A program made the translations under genes and the position numbers. Positions 1-6,953 of a DNA stretch of 6,953 nucleotides are shown here, in pieces. Below the pieces are notes generated by a model that was given only the letters and a program-made list of their open reading frames with translations, did no database searches and was not told the DNA's origin. Each line of letters begins with the position of its first letter. Within the stretch, counting starts at the first letter, position 1. Source of the DNA: Candidatus Vampirococcus lugosii (GTDB lineage: Bacteria > Patescibacteriota > Gracilibacteria > Absconditabacterales > Absconditicoccaceae); assembly GCF_018420025.1 (NCBI RefSeq), contig NZ_JAEDAM010000052.1, positions 1 through 6,953 of the forward strand, in the 5' to 3' direction.

Positions 1-525
1 TAGGTTCAAATATTCTATTTATAGACATTAACATAATCTCATTTTTATATTTTTTGATTTTGGAGGTAATTCAGAAAGATTAGCTATATTTCTATGTTTT
101 ACTTTTTTTGTATCTTTATCTCTAAAAGATACAACAATATTAATAATTGATATAAGTTTTTCAATTATATTTATGAGTACTTTTTTTAATAAACATATTA
201 TGATTATTACACTTAAAATAATAAAAGATAAGAAATAATATATTTTATTATAATTAAAAAAGTTATAATTTCAAGAGAAGCCATAATAATAATCGCCACT
301 ACAAAACGCATTTTTAAATTCTTTTTCTTTAGTTCTTAACTTGTTTTTGCTATTTTTTATTTACAAAGATGAGATTAATATCAAGAAATAGGTATAAAAA
401 TTTATCGTTAGATAATTTATATACCTCAGTAAAAAATAGTTTATCAATTCTATTTTTAATTTCTGTTAAATCTCAGATTATATATCAGTTATATAATAGT
501 GGTTTATCCATAATAGTTTTATATA

Positions 526-2676
526 TTAGTTACAAGAACAACTTTCGTTAAGTTTTTTATTCCTTTCTTCAATCAAATTATTCATACTATCAACTTTTGC
601 ATTATATCTATTAACTGAATTATCACTATATTGGTTAACATACATATTATCAATTTCTAATTGTAAACTATTTATTTGTTTATCTAAAGAAGATGTATCT
701 AAGGATATTGGACAAGTGTAATCTCATGAAGTACACCAACAGTAATTATCTTTTTCATGATATCAAATGTCACACTTCCAAGCATTATAGTTATCTTCAG
801 GAACACAATACGCATGTTCAGGCTTAGTATATTCTATTCAATTTAATATACATTTATTAGAGTTACTATCTGTACTATTATTTGAAAATAAAGTATTTAT
901 ATCATCATTAGTGTAATCAGTATCATTTGTATAAGTATTACTTGATGAGTAATTATTAGAAGAAGAACTATAATTTGAATTATTAGATGCATCATCAGAA
1001 AAAACTGAAATAAGAATAAATATTCAAGTTAAAATAAGACATATCAATCACACCCATCATGACCATCAATTATTATTTTTTTTATTTATAATGAATCTAC
1101 TTAATGCTCAATATGTAATAGAATCAACATAAAAAATAAAAAAATAACCATCTTCTTCAGATAATTTTTCTAAAGCATCTGCTCTAATTGTATCTATATG
1201 ATCAAAGACTTCTTTTGCATTTAGCTTTCATGTTTCTACTTTAGAAAGATATGCCCTTATATTATTTAATATATTATCTAATCATTCTGGATTAATTCAT
1301 TCAAATAATTCGATATTATTTTTAGCTAATTCTTCTACTTTATTAAAATATTTTATAGCTTTGGGGTAATTTTCTGATTCAAATTCTTCTTTTCAATTTA
1401 AAAATATTTTTCATAATAGTCAAAAAACTGCTCTTTTTTTTAAATTTTTTAAATATATTTGATCCTCTTTATTAAATTTTTTATTTTCTAGTTCCTCAAT
1501 TTTTTTTGAAGCTCATATAAAGTCTTCATCATCTAATAATTGAATAATTGGTTTTAACTTTATATTTGCTGTAATAGTCTTATAATCTTCATTTATCTTA
1601 TGTTTTAATCAATCAGTACCTACTATATCAATTGCATAATTTAAAACTTTCAAAGCTTCATCTTCTTCATTTAACTCATTGTTTAAATCAAGCATAATAG
1701 TCCTAAAAGCTTCTGCTACTGTATCTCTGATTATTAAAGTTTTACTATCATCATATAATCATAAATCTTCTAATTTTCTTAGTAATTGAGTTATGTCATA
1801 ATGTATTTTTTTTACCTTTGCTTTTTCATCATCATCAAATACTCAATCCTCACTAATATTCATTTCTTCTAATTCTCTTGAAAGTTTACCTAAATCTAGA
1901 TAAATTTTTTCAACTTGTTCATTAGTCTTATTTCATTTAGTATTTTTGAAATATTTATGAAATTTTTTCAAAATCGAATCATCTCATAATTTTGTAGATA
2001 TATCATAAAAAATATTTGATAAATGCTTACCTAAATCTTTTCTAAATTCAGAAATTAAGTCTTTGTTAGTTGATATATCATCAAATAATAAATACTTTTT
2101 TTCAAACATTTTCCAAAACTTATCATCATCTTGTATCTCTTTAAATAGAGTTAAAGAATTTTCAACATATTCAGAATAATCAGAATTAATACTAGGATCT
2201 AACAATAATAAAGTGTATAATATTGCTAAATTCTTTTTATTATTAGATTTTTTAAATAAATCTATAGCATTATTATAATTTTTAGTATTATAAATTGAGA
2301 AAATATTTTTATCATCATCATTTTCAATATCAAACCAGAAAAAGGTATTTAATATTTTTTCTTTAGGATTAGTTAAACTATCTAATGCAGATTTTACATA
2401 TATTTCATTTCTATACTCATGTGTAAAATATAAATCATTTTCATAATCAGGCACTTCTCATATAGCTAAATATTTTAATACATCTTTAGCTCTTTTTGAT
2501 ATTTGTTTTTGATTAGAAGAAGTATCTAGTCATAAAATATTATAACTATTATTAATTAATGGATTATTTACAATAACATAATCTTTTTTAATTGATTCAG
2601 CACAATATTCACACCTAACTGAATCTCTATCAATTTCCTCATCACAGTAAGGGCATTTAATTAAATTATCATTCAT
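526..2676 (-). CDS. Zinc-ribbon + degenerate J-like domain + helical (TPR-like) region + single TM helix + Ser/Asn-rich stalk + Cys-rich domain + coiled coil (716 aa)
   Basis: ATG at 2676..2674 is preceded by an in-frame TAA three codons upstream and overlaps the previous gene's end by 11 nt (ATGAATGATAA). The stop TAA is at 526..528. The supplied ORF 1984..2454 is just the TGA-free, Gly-poor internal stretch (residues 75-230) of this CDS. The N-terminus is MNDNLIKCPYCDEEIDRDSVRCEYC. The J-like segment is SYNILGLDTSSNQKQISKRAKDVLKYLAIGEVPDYEN...IYVKSALDSLTNPKEKILNTFFWF. The TM helix is GWSGWVGLICLILTGIFILISVF. The Cys-rich part is KCILNGIEYTKPEHAYCVPEDNYNAWKCDIGYHEKDNYCWCTSGDYTCP. Confidence 0.85.
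1000..1068 (-). other. Single predicted transmembrane helix of the 716-aa protein
   Basis: GWSGWVGLICLILTGIFILISVF is the only long hydrophobic run in the protein. It is preceded by the basic IINKKNNN and followed by the acidic, polar SDDASNNSNYSSS. Confidence 0.7.
2332..2547 (-). other. J-like domain lacking the catalytic His (VPD instead of HPD)
   Basis: Residues 44-115 align by eye to the J-domain helices I-III. SYNILGLDTSSNQKQISKRAKDVLKYLA corresponds to YYEILGV..A...EIKKAYRKLAMKY. The loop GEVPDYE corresponds to HPD, with V75-P76-D77 at 2446..2454. IYVKSALDSLTNPKEK corresponds to I.EAYEVLSDP.KR. Confidence 0.5.
2602..2655 (-). other. N-terminal CxxC-x10-CxxC zinc ribbon of the 716-aa protein (paralogous to 3728..3781)
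   Basis: CPYCDEEIDRDSVRCEYC (residues 8-25). It has the same Cys spacing and the same KCPYCxEE start as the neighbouring gene. Confidence 0.7.
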
Positions 2677-3790
2677 AGTTATTTATTATAAAATTATTTA
2701 TTATAAAATCTCAATCACTTTTAACATTTTGTTTATTTTCTCACCAAATATATATATTTTCAAAATCTAAACCTTTTCCTCAGAATATTGCATAATAATA
2801 ATATATATCTCCATCAATATCAACTTCATATGAAAATTTATAAAAAGTATATCAATCGATTTTTCTAATATCACTTTCTATATTCTCTCATCAAATTGAT
2901 AGAATATATGATTTTAATCATAATCTAATTTGTTCATTATTTATATCATCAGAGTATATTTTAGCTGTTTCCTCATCTACTTTCTCAGGAATAAATAAAG
3001 TATAATTTCATTTATTAGTTAAAAATCATTTATTTGCATCTTCATTAATCTGAGACAAGGTTTTACTATCTAATTCTTCATTAATTAATAGACTAGAATT
3101 ATTAATAATTAGCCATTTATTAATAAAATATTGCGCATTTATTTCTTTAACTTTTTCAGCTTCATCTGAATAACCTTGAAATGCAATAAATGCTATAGTT
3201 CATAATATTGTAAAAAGGTAAATACTAACTAACCAAATTAATATATTATTTTTTTCTGCTTTACTTTTCTTTACAAAAATTAATAGAAGTAATAAATATA
3301 AGTCATAAAAAGGCACTAATAGTCATAATGAATACCATCAACTTCTTCATAGATTTTTAAATCTAAAAATTGAGAGTATAATTAATCATAAAGTATATAT
3401 TAATCATCAAGATCATTCTTCTCAAATTTCAAGTATTATTCATACTATAAATAATAATATAAATCATAAATTAAACCATAATCTTTTTAGTCATCCATCT
3501 TTTTCTTCTTCTATGTTTTGTTTATTCATGCCAATATTTTTTTCTTTATCTTCCAATTTCTCATTATTTTCTTTAATCTCTTCTTTTTTTTCTATTTTTT
3601 GTACTTCTGTAGATTTAACTTCTTCTTGTTTGTTATTAATATTAGTTTTCTCTTGCTTTTTATGTTTAAGTTCAGTTTTTTCTTCTTTTATCTCTTCCTT
3701 TTTTTCAACTCAAGTAAACCATTCTCAACAATATCTACATTTTTTGGCTTTATCTTGAACTTCTTCTTTACAATAAGGACATTTTTTCAT
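2666..3790 (-). CDS. Zinc-ribbon / Lys-Glu-rich linker / DUF805-like multi-pass membrane protein with a C-terminal domain of unknown function (374 aa)
   Basis: ATG at 3790..3788 lies 12 nt after the Hsp70 stop, in the same frame, and the stop TAA is at 2666..2668. The N-terminus is [25 protein letters not shown] (CxxC-x10-CxxC). A ~75-aa K/E-rich tract follows. Then come about four hydrophobic segments (LWFNLGFILLFIVGIILEI, LIYTLGLIILSIF, YSLGLLVPFYDLYLLLLLIFV, ILIWLVSIYLFTILGTIAFIAF). They contain RFKNLGRSGWYSLGLLVP, which resembles the DUF805 motif (R.hD.GrSGWW.LL.liP). The remaining ~170 aa have no recognisable domain. Confidence 0.85.
2679..2708. repeat. Perfect 15-bp tandem duplication (TTATTTATTATAAAA x2)
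   Basis: 2679..2693 and 2694..2708 are identical. The duplication is in frame in the 374-aa CDS (FIINN-FIINN near its C-terminus). It ends 3 nt upstream of the ATG of the next gene (2676). Confidence 0.95.
3488..3709 (-). repeat. Low-complexity Lys/Glu-rich coding tract with an internal 24-nt duplication (EKKEEIKE twice)
   Basis: Residues ~28-101 of the 374-aa protein. The octapeptide EKKEEIKE occurs at residues 29-36 (3683..3706) and 67-74 (3569..3592), and 22 of 24 nt are identical. The plus-strand ORFs 3513..3758 and 3518..3802 in the supplied track are antisense shadows of this tract. Confidence 0.85.
3728..3781 (-). other. N-terminal CxxC-x10-CxxC zinc ribbon of the 374-aa protein
   Basis: [18 protein letters not shown] (residues 4-21). 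Confidence 0.7.
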
Positions 3791-3802
3791 ATTTATATTT
3801 GA

Positions 3803-6307
3803 TTAATAAAGAGTAATTCCAGAAAGATTACCTCCTTCTATTCTTCATAATTCATCTTTAGGTAATAGTTTAAACAATTCTCTAACAACTGTAGCTAATT
3901 CATCTTTATTATTATTTTTCAAAGCATTTTCTCATTTTTTGAAATAATAATCAGCATCATCTTCGCTATTAAAGTTATATCAACCAAATTTTAAATCATT
4001 ATACATTCTTTCCCACCATTCTATAGTTTCCATTAATATAGATGTTCTTAATCCATCTAATTGTTCATTTATTGATGAAAGTAAAATTTTATCTTGAGTA
4101 TCTATTGCTTTTTTTCATCAGTTTTTTACTGTTTTATATCTAACAACTAATTCTTGAGCTTTATAATCATTAGTTTTTTCCATCTCATCAATGACTCAAT
4201 CTAATATTTCTGTTAATTCATTAAATAATTTTTCTTGAATATCAAACTCAGTATTTTTTTCTAAATTATCTATTTTAACTTTGAAATCTTTTAATTTTTT
4301 ATTAGCTTTTCTTTTTTCATCCTCATCATTATTAGCATTATTAACAGTTCATTCTAAATATGAAATTTCCTCATCAATTTCTTCTTTTTGAGTAGGTGTA
4401 AAACTAGCTCTAATTTTAGCATATCTTTCTTGTTCTCAATCTAAGTCTTTTTTTAATAGTCATAAATCAATTTCTTCATTTAATGTTGTAGTACGAACAT
4501 TTAAAGATAAATCAATTGAAGATATATATGCTTTTACTGATAATTGCCTTGAAGTATCAACCTCAATAGTTACTTCAACAGGAGTTCATGCTTCTAAATC
4601 ATAAGGGATTTTTTCTCATGAAATACCTAAATCACATATAAATTGATTTCTATCAGGATTTTCTGATTCTCATTCATACACTTTTATTGGTAGAGCATTA
4701 GTAGACTCTCCTTTTATTAAACTTTTACTAGTTTTAAATTCAATTGTTTTAGATAAAGGTAGTTTTGAATTTTTTTCAAAAAACCAATACATTTCATCTT
4801 TCCAAGATAAACCATTATTTTGTTTAGCAATTGATACTCAAATATTATATGGTATAGGAATACTTCAAACAGATAATCATTGTGAAATAGTAAAGCTATC
4901 ATTATTTAATTCTAAAGTGTTTCATTTAGAATCAATAAGATAAATCATATAATTATTGGTTTTTCATGCTTCTAATTTTATATTAGCTATAAACTTACCA
5001 TTTTTTATTAGGATTTTATTACTAGAATAATATCAACTTTCACTCTGTATTTGTATAAAAAATTCTTCATCTTCATTTAATCACTCAATGATTCAACTTA
5101 CCATTTCTTCATTTTCAGATGAGACAGCTTCATAGTTTAATTTAATATTATATGAATCTAGACATACTTTATTATTTTCTTTGAATTCATCTTTAATAAT
5201 TTGATTTGATGCATAAATAGCTCCTCCTTTAGAAACTACTGTTAAAGGATCTACACTAGAGTCCACTTCTATTCAAAATTCTTTTTCAAGTCTATCCTTA
5301 ATTATAGGAGATTGAGTACTTCATCATACTAATACTATTTTTTCAATAGAGTTTTTATCTACTCATGATTCATTTATAGTTTCTTTTACTAAAACTAAAG
5401 ATTTTTTCACAAAAGGTTCAACTAATTTTTCAAAATCTTTTTTAGTTATAGTTATATTTAAATAAATTTCATTTCCATTATCATCTTCTCATACTTTATC
5501 AATTTCAACATTAACCTCATTATCATAAGTCAACATTTTCTTTGTATTTTCAGCTAATCATTTAAGTATATTAAATACATTTTTATACTTTTCATTTCAT
5601 CTAGAAAAATTTAATAAAGAGAATTTTTCTGTTATTTTAGGTATAAAGATATTATCTACAATTGCCCAATCAAAATCTTTTCATCATAAAAAATTATCTC
5701 ATTTACTAGATAAGATATTTAACAATCAATCTTTTGATTGAATTAATGCTGTATCAAATGTTCATCCTCATAAGTCATAAACTAACCAATTAGTATTTTG
5801 TTCTTTTCAAAATCAATATGCTATAGCTGCAGCGATAGGTTCTTGCAACAAGACTACTTGTTTAAATCATGCCAATTCTCAAGACCTTTTAGTAGCTTCT
5901 GACTCTAAAGTTGAAAAATGTGCAGGAATTGTTATAACAGCTCCTATAGTATTAACTTCAGGATATTTTTTTAATACAGTACTTTTAAGATACTTTAATA
6001 ACTCAGCTGAAATTTCCTCAGCTTTCATATTTTTATCTACTCTAGGAAAAAATGTTATTTCAGGAGTTCACATTAACCTTTTTACTTCTGCTTTAAAATT
6101 TTGTATATCTCATTTATCAGCATATTTGAAGAGTTTTTCATAAGCTCTTTTTCACACCAGAGGATTATTTGCTTTATCATATCAAAAAACAGATGGTGTG
6201 AATTCATCCATTTCAAAATTTTTAATAATTTCTATATTTCAACAATTATTATATGCTATTGCTGAATTTGTAGTTCAAAGATCAATTCATATTTGAATAG
6301 TAGACAT
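3803..6307 (-). CDS. Divergent Hsp70-family ATPase (834 aa), not a canonical DnaK
   Basis: ATG at 6307..6305 is preceded by an in-frame TAA at 6311..6313, and the stop TAA is at 3803..3805. By my hand count there are 44 in-frame TGA codons. Hsp70 signatures appear only if TGA = Gly: MSTIQIGIDLGTTNSAIAY (phosphate-1), ITIPAHFS, LLQEPIAAAIAYG, WLVYDLGGGTFD (phosphate-2), GDNFLGGKDFD and KIVLVGGSTQSPII (adenosine motif). A substrate-binding beta-domain-like segment follows: NIGVSIAKQ...LPIKVYEGESENPDRNQFICDLGISGEKIPYDLEAGTPVEVTIEVDTSRQLSVKAY. After that comes a ~230-aa helical tail ending ...ELATVVRELFKLLPKDELGRIEGGNLSGITLY. Confidence 0.93.
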
Positions 6308-6318
6308 ATTTTATATGG

Positions 6319-6672
6319 TTAAGGTGTAAATTTATAAACAATGATTTTTGCTTGTTTTATTATATTTCAGTTATTTATCACAGCAGGTTCTATAGTATCT
6401 TTTATTATTCAATCTAATTCAGGAAAATTAGTATCTTCAGTAGCTTTTAATTCATAAAAATTTATTTCTTCTGAATATTTTTCTCATGAAAATCACTTTA
6501 GTTCAATATCCAAATCTTTTATAAATTTCTTTAATCTATCTAAACTTACAGAAATTTTTTCGTTATCTTGATCTTTTAAATAAACAATCTTAGAGATTTT
6601 TTCTCCTAATCTCCATATATCAACTGATAAATTAATCAATTTATTGATATCTATATTTTTATTATCTTTCAT
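6319..6672 (-). CDS. Small GrpE-like protein, candidate nucleotide exchange factor for the downstream Hsp70 (117 aa)
   Basis: ATG at 6672..6670 is the first start after an in-frame TAA. The frame stays open with 4 TGA read as Gly and ends in TAA at 6319..6321. Translation: MKDNKNIDINKLINLSVDIWRLGEKISKIVYLKDQDNEKISVSLDRLKKFIKDLDIELKGFSGEKYSEEINFYELKATEDTNFPELDGIIKDTIEPAVINNGNIIKQAKIIVYKFTP. The C-terminal half follows the GrpE beta-domain pattern (L..l.k.gvE.i...G..fd...h.a....d..p..v..v...GY.lnGr.iR.A.V.V.K). It sits 11 nt upstream of an Hsp70 gene, as grpE does relative to dnaK. Confidence 0.7.
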
Positions 6673-6851
6673 AAATTTTATTAATTTTTAAATATATTAT
6701 ATATAATTATTTTAATCAAAAATTCCAAAGACTTTTTACCTTATTTTTTTATCCCCCCCATTTTTTCGAGCGATAGCGAGATTTATATAAATATTATACC
6801 TTATTAAAAGACCTATAAAGCAATATCGCACAACTAATTTTTAAATATTTA
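6673..6851 (-). promoter_or_regulatory. Intergenic region upstream of the four-gene cluster; probable promoter region
   Basis: This is the only sizeable non-coding gap between minus-strand genes. There are two sigma70-like candidates on the minus strand. One is TTGCTT (6823..6818), a 19-nt spacer, then TATAAT (6798..6793). The other is TTGATT (6719..6714), a 17-nt spacer, then TATATT (6696..6691), which lies 18 nt before the ATG at 6672. Such hexamers arise easily by chance in DNA this AT-rich, so neither is secure. Confidence 0.35.
6753..6780. repeat. GC island: C7 homopolymer (6753..6759), A, T6 (6761..6766), then the 13-nt mirror repeat GAGCGATAGCGAG (6768..6780; AGCGA twice with a 6-nt period)
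   Basis: Read directly from the sequence: atcccccccattttttcgagcgatagcgag. It is the most G+C-dense non-coding stretch in the window. Confidence 0.9.
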
Positions 6852-6953
6852 TTATTTAATAGTAAATGATCTAATAGTATTATAAATATTTTCTTGTACT
6901 ACAGATTTAAAATCTATTGTTGATAATTCTCATTTTTTAAAAAGTTTGGATAA
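6852..6953 (-). CDS. 3' end of an unidentified upstream gene (partial; continues past the window edge)
   Basis: This is the only minus frame open from the window edge. It has 33 sense codons, LSKLFKKGELSTIDFKSVVQENIYNTIRSFTIK (one TGA read as Gly), then TAA at 6852..6854. The other two minus frames hit TAA/TAG within a few codons. No recognisable domain. Confidence 0.35.

What the first reader, a model, noticed from the sequence alone, without database searches (positions are those of the whole stretch)
1..6953. TGA is read as glycine: a translation-table-25 (SR1/Absconditabacteria-Gracilibacteria type) genome fragment
Under the standard code the window has almost no ORFs, yet the minus strand is continuously open if only TAA and TAG are stops. 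The identity of the TGA-encoded residue can be read from invariant Hsp70 motifs. GIDLGTTNS has both Gly positions as TGA (6287..6289, 6275..6277). DLGGGTFD is TGA-GGA-TGA (5768..5770, 5765..5767, 5762..5764). LVGGST is TGA-TGA (5324..5326, 5321..5323). Trp is separately encoded by TGG, for example in EWWERMY and DFDWAIV. If TGA were Trp (table 4), the Hsp70 would be about 6% Trp and would lack its catalytic glycines. Table 25 is known only from the SR1/Absconditabacteria and Gracilibacteria lineages, so the code itself assigns the source taxon. It also means any table-11 or table-4 annotation of this locus is wrong.
Basis: partly seen in the sequence, partly recalled or inferred. Interest (0 to 1): 0.75.

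Follow-up and report, generated by a model that had tools for sequence, protein, structure and literature searches.

The report
Known UGA-to-glycine code, Vampirococcus contig

Summary
The observation and the interpretation both hold. With TGA as a stop, the minus strand has only 237 aa in ORFs of at least 80 aa. With only TAA and TAG as stops it has 2163 aa in five back-to-back ORFs, the longest 835 codons. Random sequences of the same composition never exceeded 177 codons.

The four full genes hold 94 in-frame TGA codons, no in-frame TAA or TAG, and all end in TAA. In the Hsp70 gene, the PF00012 score is 241 bits with TGA read as Gly, 172 with X and 154 with Trp. At its 44 TGA codons, 100 standard-code homologues carry Gly in 68% of cells and Trp in none of 4398. 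Recoded relatives swap TGA with GGN 37 times and with TGG twice.

The Gly translations are exact matches to GenBank proteins MBS8122195-98 of Ca. Vampirococcus lugosii (Absconditibacteriota), on a 6953-bp contig. Its 2021 genome paper reports UGA=Gly and used table 25. So the finding is true but already known.

Seen in passing: the genes form a widely conserved and, as far as I could find, undescribed module. It comprises a GrpE-like factor, an 834-aa atypical Hsp70, a J-like membrane protein without the HPD motif, and an AAA ATPase that is truncated here.

The parts
6862..6953 (-). Last 30 codons of an upstream gene cut by the contig end. It has one in-frame TGA (6930-6932) and ends in TAA TAA.
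   Evidence: frame-0 translation reads LSKLFKKgELSTIDFKSVVQENIYNTIRSFTIK**.
6673..6861 (-). Intergenic region upstream of the operon. It holds the only G+C-rich patch of the window (about 6745-6790). It is not conserved in relatives.
   Evidence: The promoter scan is not above chance.
6319..6672 (-). GrpE-like nucleotide exchange factor of 117 aa (GenBank 'hypothetical protein' MBS8122198.1). It has 4 TGA codons and stops at TAA.
   Evidence: Exact NCBI match. AF2 model with pLDDT 85. The top 11 Foldseek PDB hits are all GrpE; 1dkg_A has E=5e-4 and TMq 0.61. An orthologue hits Pfam GrpE at E=9e-4, below the gathering score.
3803..6307 (-). Atypical 834-aa Hsp70 family protein (MBS8122197.1). 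It has 44 TGA, 14 GGN and 6 TGG codons and stops at TAA.
   Evidence: PF00012 E=7e-73, covering the nucleotide-binding domain only. Far below the DnaK/HscA equivalog cut-offs. The TGA columns are Gly in homologues.
2666..3790 (-). Zinc-ribbon plus transmembrane protein of 374 aa (MBS8122196.1). It has 24 TGA codons and stops at TAA. It is inserted between the Hsp70 and its partner in this species only.
   Evidence: Zn_ribbon_3 E=8.5e-6, just below the gathering score. Absent at this position in L001, L002, L004, L006 and L007.
526..2676 (-). 716-aa partner protein (MBS8122195.1). It has an N-terminal zinc ribbon, a J-like domain without HPD, helical/TPR-like repeats, a transmembrane helix and a Cys-rich tail. 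It has 22 TGA codons and stops at TAA.
   Evidence: Orthologous to the gene after the Hsp70 in all relatives, at 53-63% identity. J-domain similarity: hhalign E=1.3e-4, probability 54%; 9 of 11 weak PDB hits are DnaJ. At its TGA positions, two standard-code orthologues have Gly in 14 of 36 aligned cells and never Trp.
350..511 (-). Remnant of the operon's AAA ATPase gene. The first 45 codons are 87% identical to the relatives' 364-aa AAA. Homology then stops at about 376, and a stop codon follows at 350-352.
   Evidence: The independent Logan contig L049 equals window 349-6861 and ends at this point. No full-length V. lugosii AAA appears among the close hits.
1..349 (.). Unassigned sequence beyond the break. 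It has no homology to relatives' loci. An ORF at 28-360 (-) has no ATG near its 5' end.

Best explanation
The window is a chromosomal contig of Candidatus Vampirococcus lugosii (Absconditabacteria/SR1). This organism uses NCBI translation table 25: UGA is decoded as glycine, UGG remains the Trp codon, and only UAA and UAG terminate. In this 22% G+C genome, TGA has become the main Gly codon, accounting for 94 of 119 Gly codons in the four genes. Shown here: TGA is a sense codon, it stands for Gly, TGG stands for Trp, and every gene ends in TAA. Inferred from what is known of the lineage: decoding relies on a tRNA-Gly with anticodon UCA and on loss of release factor 2. The genes themselves form a dedicated Hsp70 module.
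For: ORF structure: (835-codon ORF against a maximum of 177 in 300 randomisations; 94 in-frame TGA, 0 in-frame TAA/TAG, 4 of 4 genes stop at TAA). Residue identity: (PF00012 scores Gly 241.2, Ser 185, Ala 177.8, Cys 177, X 172.1, Trp 154.0 bits); at the 44 TGA codons, 100 standard-code homologues show 67.8% Gly, and 29 positions are at least 83% Gly; TGG codons align to Trp columns; log2-odds Gly +108, next best -126, Trp -193; Trp in 0 of 4398 cells. A second gene agrees. Codon-level exchange in three recoded relatives: TGA aligns with TGA 126 times, GGN 37, TGG 2. Composition: homologues average about 0.5% Trp and about 6% Gly, whereas table-4-translated relatives show 3.5-6.8% Trp and 0.5-4.6% Gly. 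Identity and taxon. Publication: PMC8080830 states UGA=Gly and used Prodigal table 25. Lineage mechanism: PMC8629427 describes the expected tRNA-UCA-Gly and the link to RF2. My pattern scan recovered a 77-nt tRNA(UCA) with a Gly-type acceptor stem (GCGGGAG...CTCCCGC-U) in a Gracilibacteria MAG.
Against: No tRNA gene lies in the window, and prfB absence cannot be checked from one contig, so the decoding machinery of this genome was not seen directly. Fifteen of the 44 TGA positions fall in variable columns where homologues carry Glu, Lys, Asn, Ser or Tyr. This is expected for non-conserved sites and equally true of GGN codons, which align to 52% Gly. There is no protein-level (mass spectrometry) evidence.
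Confidence: 0.97

Rival explanations
1. TGA encodes tryptophan (table 4), as in Mycoplasmatales and several insect endosymbionts.
For: The window has low G+C (22%) and TGA is clearly a sense codon. Public gene callers (Logan, ENA, JGI) did translate this locus and its relatives that way.
Against: Trp gives the lowest Pfam score of all residues tried, 154 bits, which is below the neutral X at 172. Trp occurs in 0 of 4398 homologue cells at TGA columns, with log2-odds of -193. The protein would be 6% Trp against about 0.5% in homologues. TGA exchanges with GGN 37 times but with TGG only twice.
Confidence: 0.01
2. The organism uses the standard code and the genes are decayed pseudogenes, or the sequence is riddled with errors, so the TGA codons are real stops.
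For: Under table 11 there are almost no ORFs. The template was whole-genome amplified.
Against: The four ORFs hold 94 in-frame TGA but no in-frame TAA or TAG, in a genome where TAA is the commonest out-of-frame triplet. The same TGA positions are conserved in relatives from other samples. An independent assembly is 99.97% identical.
Confidence: 0.005
3. TGA encodes selenocysteine or cysteine.
For: UGA is the Sec codon, and ARAGORN labels any tRNA(UCA) as SeC.
Against: The density is 4.6% of codons. Cys scores 177 bits against 241 for Gly, with log2-odds of -181. No SECIS-like or other RNA family was found. The tRNA(UCA) genes found in relatives are 74-77 nt without the long extra arm of tRNA-Sec.
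Confidence: 0.002
4. The contig comes from a phage or mobile element of a code-25 host rather than from the bacterial chromosome. In that case the code would identify the host range, not the organism.
For: Standard-code copies of the same gene cluster sit next to mobile or defence-type genes: AbiEii, SLFN_AlbA_2, VapE and ArdC.
Against: The contig was binned and published as V. lugosii. The cluster lies in long chromosomal contigs of 0.58-1.8 Mb elsewhere. In relatives it is flanked by housekeeping genes such as HrcA, EPSP synthase, GatC and tRNA-Cys. No phage hallmark gene lies in the window.
Confidence: 0.02

Closest known systems
[quoted passage not shown] 2013, Rinke et al. 2013, as cited in PMC8629427 and PMC8080830)
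   Same: UGA is a Gly codon, UGG is Trp, UAA/UAG are stops, the genome is low in G+C, and the lineage is Absconditabacteria. This contig is itself deposited and annotated under that code.
   Different: Nothing differs for the codons present. Codetta additionally predicts CGA/CGG->Trp in Absconditabacteria (PMC8629427). The four ORFs contain no CGA or CGG codon, so that extension can be neither supported nor refuted here.
Translation table 4 (UGA=Trp; Mycoplasmatales, Entomoplasmatales, insect endosymbionts)
   Same: A stop-to-sense reassignment of UGA in an AT-rich reduced genome. Gene structure is recovered equally well, which is why gene callers use it as a proxy.
   Different: The residue is Gly, not Trp. 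Table-4 products of this locus carry 4, 24 and 22 wrong residues in the three genes compared, and by inference 44 in the Hsp70.
Canonical bacterial DnaK-GrpE-DnaJ chaperone system
   Same: An Hsp70 ATPase domain with all signature Gly motifs. The upstream gene has a GrpE fold. The downstream partner has a J-domain-like N-terminus.
   Different: The Hsp70 is 834 aa and fails the DnaK/HscA equivalog cut-offs, scoring 256 against 648 bits. The GrpE-like protein is only 117 aa and is not recognised by Pfam. The J-like domain lacks HPD, showing E/D-x-D instead, and is fused to TPR-like repeats and a membrane anchor. A classical AAA ATPase is the conserved fourth gene.

Membership tests
Genetic code 25 (UGA=Gly) | UGA occurs in frame inside conserved protein-coding genes, while UAA/UAG do not | tested here: met
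   94 in-frame TGA and 0 in-frame TAA/TAG in four genes.
Genetic code 25 (UGA=Gly) | UGA positions align with glycine in standard-code homologues | tested here: met
   67.8% Gly pooled; 29 of 44 positions at least 83% Gly; log2-odds +108. Pfam gains 69 bits over X. A second gene agrees.
Genetic code 25 (UGA=Gly) | UGG remains the Trp codon, and UAA/UAG terminate genes | tested here: met
   The three conserved Trp columns matched by a window Trp are all TGG. All four genes and all orthologues end in TAA or TAG.
Genetic code 25 (UGA=Gly) | The genome encodes a tRNA-Gly with anticodon UCA | not testable with these tools
   No tRNA in the window or near the operon in relatives. Only lineage-level support: a Gly-type-acceptor tRNA(UCA) in a Gracilibacteria MAG (L022) and in two other MAGs, and the literature.
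Genetic code 25 (UGA=Gly) | Release factor 2 (prfB) is absent | not testable with these tools
   Only one 6953-bp contig of the genome is accessible. The genome paper does not mention release factors.
Genetic code 25 (UGA=Gly) | The organism belongs to Absconditabacteria or Gracilibacteria | tested here: met
   Exact protein matches to Ca. Vampirococcus lugosii, phylum Ca. Absconditibacteriota.
Genetic code 4 (UGA=Trp) | UGA positions align with tryptophan | tested here: not met
   Trp in 0 of 4398 cells; log2-odds -193; Pfam 154 bits, below X at 172.
Hsp70 family (PF00012) | Actin-like ATPase domain with the phosphate-binding Gly motifs | tested here: met
   PF00012 E=7e-73 over profile positions 2-393. 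GIDLGTTNS, DLGGGTFD and LVGGST are all present.
Canonical DnaK / HscA (NCBIfam equivalogs) | Full-length score above the curated cut-off | tested here: not met
   DnaK scores 255.6 against a cut-off of 648; HscA scores 242.6 against 708. The C-terminal half defines its own subfamily of 883 cluster representatives.
GrpE (small protein, 6319-6672) | GrpE fold: paired helices followed by a small beta-domain | tested here: met
   The top 11 Foldseek PDB hits are all GrpE, with probability up to 1.00 and TMq 0.61. Sequence-level membership is not met: no Pfam hit for the window protein, and an orthologue scores 19.4 against a gathering score of 25.8.
J-domain protein (partner, 526-2676) | HPD tripeptide between helices II and III | tested here: not met
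   All six orthologues have E/D-x-D where HPD aligns.
J-domain protein (partner, 526-2676) | Four-helix J-domain similarity | tested here: inconclusive
   hhalign probability 54%, E=1.3e-4 over 60 columns. PDB profile hits are mostly DnaJ but at E=0.14-1.5. PF00226 E=0.098 for an orthologue.

The most novel reading that the evidence does not exclude
The code is not new, but the gene content may be. The contig carries a four-gene module: a GrpE-like exchange factor, an approximately 830-aa atypical Hsp70, a membrane-anchored TPR protein with a J-like domain lacking HPD, and a classical AAA ATPase. The module is conserved at about 50% identity across CPR/Patescibacteria, Omnitrophota and Elusimicrobia. 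I found no family model, defence-system model or paper describing it. It could be an undescribed membrane-associated Hsp70-AAA machine, acting in protein extraction, quality control or a conflict system. In V. lugosii it has been remodelled by a zinc-ribbon gene insertion and AAA truncation.
Probability: 0.4. Interest if true: 0.45.

Novelty: already known. Interest (0 to 1): 0.12.

Why it matters
For the finding as stated, the value is practical rather than new. It shows that the code and the source lineage can be read correctly from a single 7-kb fragment. It also shows that large public protein collections (Logan, ENA, JGI gene calls) hold this locus and most of its close relatives translated with Trp in place of Gly at up to 7% of residues. 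That degrades homology searches, alignments and structure predictions for Absconditabacteria and Gracilibacteria. The conserved Hsp70 module is a separate lead that may deserve its own study.

Tried and rejected
- tRNA scan of the window found none. Scans of relatives' loci found only tRNA-Cys.
- The Rfam scan found only two sub-threshold snoRNA chance hits.
- The promoter and terminator scans were not above shuffles.
- A genome-wide pattern for a Gly-type acceptor plus UCA anticodon gave 41 hits, mostly chance. Of the eight loci then scanned with ARAGORN, three held real tRNA(UCA) genes. None was from V. lugosii, so the pattern was too strict or too noisy to survey the lineage.
- Campbell et al. 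2013 is not held in the library. Hanke et al. 2014 has no text on tRNA or release factors.
- PADLOC gave no credible defence-system match.
- A sequence-profile search of the PDB with the small protein did not find GrpE. Only the fold search did.
- Upstream intergenic DNA is not conserved in relatives.
- The left 349 bp has no homologue in related loci.
- A search for a full-length V. lugosii AAA orthologue found none. The closest unnamed candidate, P0302, is from another sample.
- Two literature searches for the Hsp70-GrpE-AAA module found only a different GTPase-centred system in PMC7159879.
- CGA/CGG->Trp could not be tested, because the window's ORFs hold no such codon. The two such codons in relatives' Hsp70 genes were uninformative or aligned with Arg.
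Full report
**Observation**

The window is 6953 bp with 22% G+C. Under the bacterial standard code it is almost empty. There are thirteen ORFs of at least 40 aa, the longest 156 aa, and only 237 aa in ORFs of at least 80 aa on the minus strand.

If only TAA and TAG are treated as stops, the minus strand resolves into five adjacent ORFs totalling 2163 aa. They lie at 28-360, 526-2682, 2666-3802, 3803-6310 and 6319-6687. Releasing TAG instead changes nothing. Releasing TAA opens spurious ORFs on both strands.

In 300 first-order Markov randomisations, the longest TAA/TAG-free ORF never exceeded 177 codons, against 835 observed. The four complete genes contain 94 in-frame TGA codons and no in-frame TAA or TAG. 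All four start with ATG and stop with TAA.

**Which amino acid does TGA encode?**

- **Pfam scores.** I translated the first 400 codons of the 834-codon ORF six ways and scored them against Pfam. PF00012 gives 241.2 bits with TGA=Gly, 185 with Ser, 177.8 with Ala, 177 with Cys, 172.1 with the neutral X and 154.0 with Trp. Gly therefore adds 69 bits over an uninformative residue, and Trp subtracts 18.
- **Homologue columns.** I aligned the ORF, with X at each TGA so the alignment was unbiased, to 100 full-length homologues from standard-code organisms. These are about 50% identical, with 0.4-0.7% Trp and 5.3-6.8% Gly. At the 44 TGA codons they carry Gly in 67.8% of cells. Twenty-nine positions are at least 83% Gly. 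Trp occurs in 0 of 4398 cells.
- **Log-odds.** The summed log2-odds are +108 for Gly, -126 for the next residue (Asn), -181 for Cys and -193 for Trp.
- **Controls.** The window's TGG codons sit on the conserved Trp columns. Its 14 GGN codons behave like the TGA codons, aligning to 52% Gly.
- **A second gene.** In the 716-aa partner, two standard-code orthologues have Gly in 14 of 36 aligned cells at TGA positions, and never Trp.
- **Codon exchange.** In three recoded relatives from other samples, the window's TGA codons align with TGA 126 times, GGN 37 times and TGG twice. This is the pattern expected of synonymous exchange between TGA and GGN.
- **Codon usage.** TGA is the majority Gly codon here, 94 against 25 GGN. 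That fits the AT bias.

**Source**

The Gly translation of the Hsp70 ORF is 100% identical over 834 aa to 'Hsp70 family protein [Candidatus Vampirococcus lugosii]', carried on a contig of exactly 6953 bp. All four Gly translations are exact matches to consecutive GenBank proteins MBS8122195-MBS8122198. NCBI places the species in the phylum Candidatus Absconditibacteriota.

The genome paper (Moreira et al. 2021, PMC8080830) states that UGA is reassigned to glycine in Vampirococcus, as in other Absconditabacteria/SR1. It also states that CDSs were predicted with Prodigal translation table 25. Both were already published and deposited for this very sequence.

**Mechanism: shown and inferred**

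Shown here:
- UGA is a sense codon.
- It stands for Gly.
- UGG stands for Trp.
- UAA terminates all four genes.

Inferred from knowledge of the lineage:
- a tRNA-Gly with anticodon UCA reads UGA;
- release factor 2 has been lost.

The paper mentions 38 tRNA genes but no release factors. Shulgina and Eddy (PMC8629427) use 'the expected UGA-decoding tRNA-UCA-Gly gene' and the presence or absence of RF2 as the markers that separate recoded from non-recoded Gracilibacteria.

I made a partial check of my own by scanning the species-representative genome collection. The pattern demanded a bacterial Gly-type acceptor stem (G1-C72, C2-G71, G3-C70, U73), a UCA anticodon and T-loop invariants. Most of the 41 hits were chance. 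Of the eight loci then scanned with ARAGORN, three held real 74-77-nt tRNA(UCA) genes, one of them in a Candidatus Gracilibacteria MAG.

**A caveat on 'table 25'**

The same Codetta study predicts that Absconditabacteria also read CGA and CGG as Trp. The four ORFs of the window contain no CGA or CGG codon. Arg is encoded 32 times by AGA, 7 times by AGG and once by CGT. The window is therefore silent on this point, and translations under table 25 and under the extended code would be identical.

**Mis-translations in public data**

Seventeen of the nineteen closest Hsp70 clusters, from Logan, ENA and JGI gene calls, carry 3.5-6.8% Trp and only 0.5-4.6% Gly. This means TGA was read as Trp.

A Logan assembly of run SRR13241708 (L049) is 99.97% identical to window 349-6861. 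Its called proteins differ from the NCBI ones by G->W at every TGA codon, numbering 4, 24 and 22 in the three genes compared, plus one further substitution (E74K) in the small protein.

**What the genes are**

The 834-aa protein has a complete Hsp70 ATPase domain (PF00012 E=7e-73). It scores far below the DnaK and HscA equivalog cut-offs. Its C-terminal 459 residues identify a distinct subfamily: 883 representatives of 50%-identity clusters at E<=1e-3, most of them 815-850 aa long.

The gene order is conserved in recoded relatives (L001-L004) and in standard-code contigs of 0.58 and 1.8 Mb (L006, L007). The order is small protein, then Hsp70, then a 530-705-aa helical protein with a C-terminal membrane anchor, then a roughly 360-aa classical AAA ATPase (PF00004 plus AAA_lid_3).

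- **The small protein has a GrpE fold.** GenBank calls it 'hypothetical'. An AlphaFold2 model built from 22 sequences has pLDDT 85 in the best model, though the other four models were much lower. Its first eleven Foldseek matches in the PDB are all GrpE; 1dkg_A has E=5e-4, TMq 0.61 and probability 1.00.
- **The partner starts with a J-domain-like segment.** Nine of eleven weak PDB profile hits are DnaJ. All six orthologues have E/D-x-D where HPD should be, so it is not a canonical J domain.

I found no PADLOC model and no paper describing this module. The Hsp70/GrpE/DnaJ-TPR association in Kaur et al. 2020 is centred on GTPases and lacks the AAA.

**How V. lugosii departs from the conserved layout**

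- A 374-aa zinc-ribbon and transmembrane gene (2666-3790) is inserted after the Hsp70.
- The partner has gained an N-terminal zinc ribbon.
- Only the first 45 codons of the AAA gene remain (376-511). They are followed by unrelated sequence and a stop at 350-352.

The independent Logan contig ends at exactly that point, window position 349. The genome was assembled from MDA/MALBAC-amplified DNA. The truncation could therefore be a real deletion or an amplification chimera. No full-length V. lugosii AAA orthologue appears among the 23 close (63-100% identical) hits of a database search. That leans toward real loss or a gap in the assembly.

**Verdict**

Novelty is nil: the code, the lineage and this contig's annotation are all in the literature and in GenBank. 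Interest is low. The only leads worth keeping are the uncharacterised Hsp70-GrpE-like-J-like-AAA module and the systematic Trp-for-Gly mis-translation of this lineage in large protein collections.

Noticed in passing
window 350-6672 (-); also L001 9647-15733, L002 9506-15689, L004 4287-10295, L006 about 5500-11716, L007 5474-12518: A four-gene module is conserved from code-25 bacteria to standard-code Patescibacteria, Omnitrophota and Elusimicrobia. Its order is small protein, about 830-aa Hsp70, 530-705-aa helical/TPR membrane-anchored protein, and about 360-aa classical AAA ATPase. I found no family model, PADLOC model or paper for it. The Hsp70 C-terminal half has 883 50%-cluster representatives.
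   Followed up: partly
window 6319-6672 (-): The 117-aa 'hypothetical protein' upstream of the Hsp70 has a predicted GrpE fold. The top 11 PDB fold hits are all GrpE, although Pfam does not recognise it. Some orthologues (L002, L007) add an N-terminal transmembrane helix.
   Followed up: yes
window 526-2676 (-), residues about 45-115: The partner protein begins with a J-domain-like segment in which HPD is replaced by E/D-x-D in all six orthologues examined. The V. lugosii copy also has an extra N-terminal zinc ribbon and a Cys-rich extracytoplasmic tail. That tail is homologous to a separate gene in L007 (10827-11435).
   Followed up: partly
window 350-511 (-) and 1-349: Only the first 45 codons of the module's AAA ATPase are present. 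Homology stops at about 376, and an independent Logan contig (L049) ends at 349. The cause is either a real deletion or an MDA chimera/assembly break. The remaining 349 bp match nothing in related loci.
   Followed up: partly
window 2666-3790 (-): A 374-aa zinc-ribbon plus multi-transmembrane gene is inserted between the Hsp70 and its partner, in V. lugosii only. Its end overlaps the partner's start by 11 nt. UniRef labels it 'FAS1 domain-containing', which no Pfam hit supported.
   Followed up: no
L049 (Logan SRR13241708) = window 349-6861; proteins P0002, P0004-P0020: Public gene calls (Logan, ENA, JGI) for this locus and 17 of its 19 closest Hsp70 clusters translate TGA as Trp. The resulting proteins have 3.5-6.8% Trp. 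For the same DNA, the Logan and NCBI products differ by G->W at every TGA, plus one other substitution.
   Followed up: yes
L022 4485-4561, L039 507-580, L036 2420-2493: Normal-length tRNAs with anticodon UCA and a bacterial Gly-type acceptor stem (GCG...CGC-U73) occur in a Gracilibacteria MAG, a Patescibacteria-group MAG and an unclassified MAG. ARAGORN labels them tRNA-SeC. I did not establish whether the last two genomes are recoded.
   Followed up: partly
window, four ORFs; L001 Hsp70 codon 605; L002 Hsp70 codon 765: The window's genes contain no CGA or CGG codon, so Codetta's proposed CGA/CGG->Trp reassignment in Absconditabacteria cannot be tested here. In relatives, the single CGA aligns with a conserved Arg column and the single CGG with a variable column.
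   Followed up: partly
window about 6745-6790: This is the only G+C-rich patch in a 22% G+C window. On the minus strand it reads AAATCTCGCTATCGCTCGAAAAAATGGGGGGGAT. It lies in the intergenic region upstream of the operon, is not conserved in relatives, and matches no Rfam family or hairpin.
   Followed up: no
window 6862-6953 (-): The 3' end (30 codons, one TGA) of another gene is cut by the contig end.
   Followed up: no
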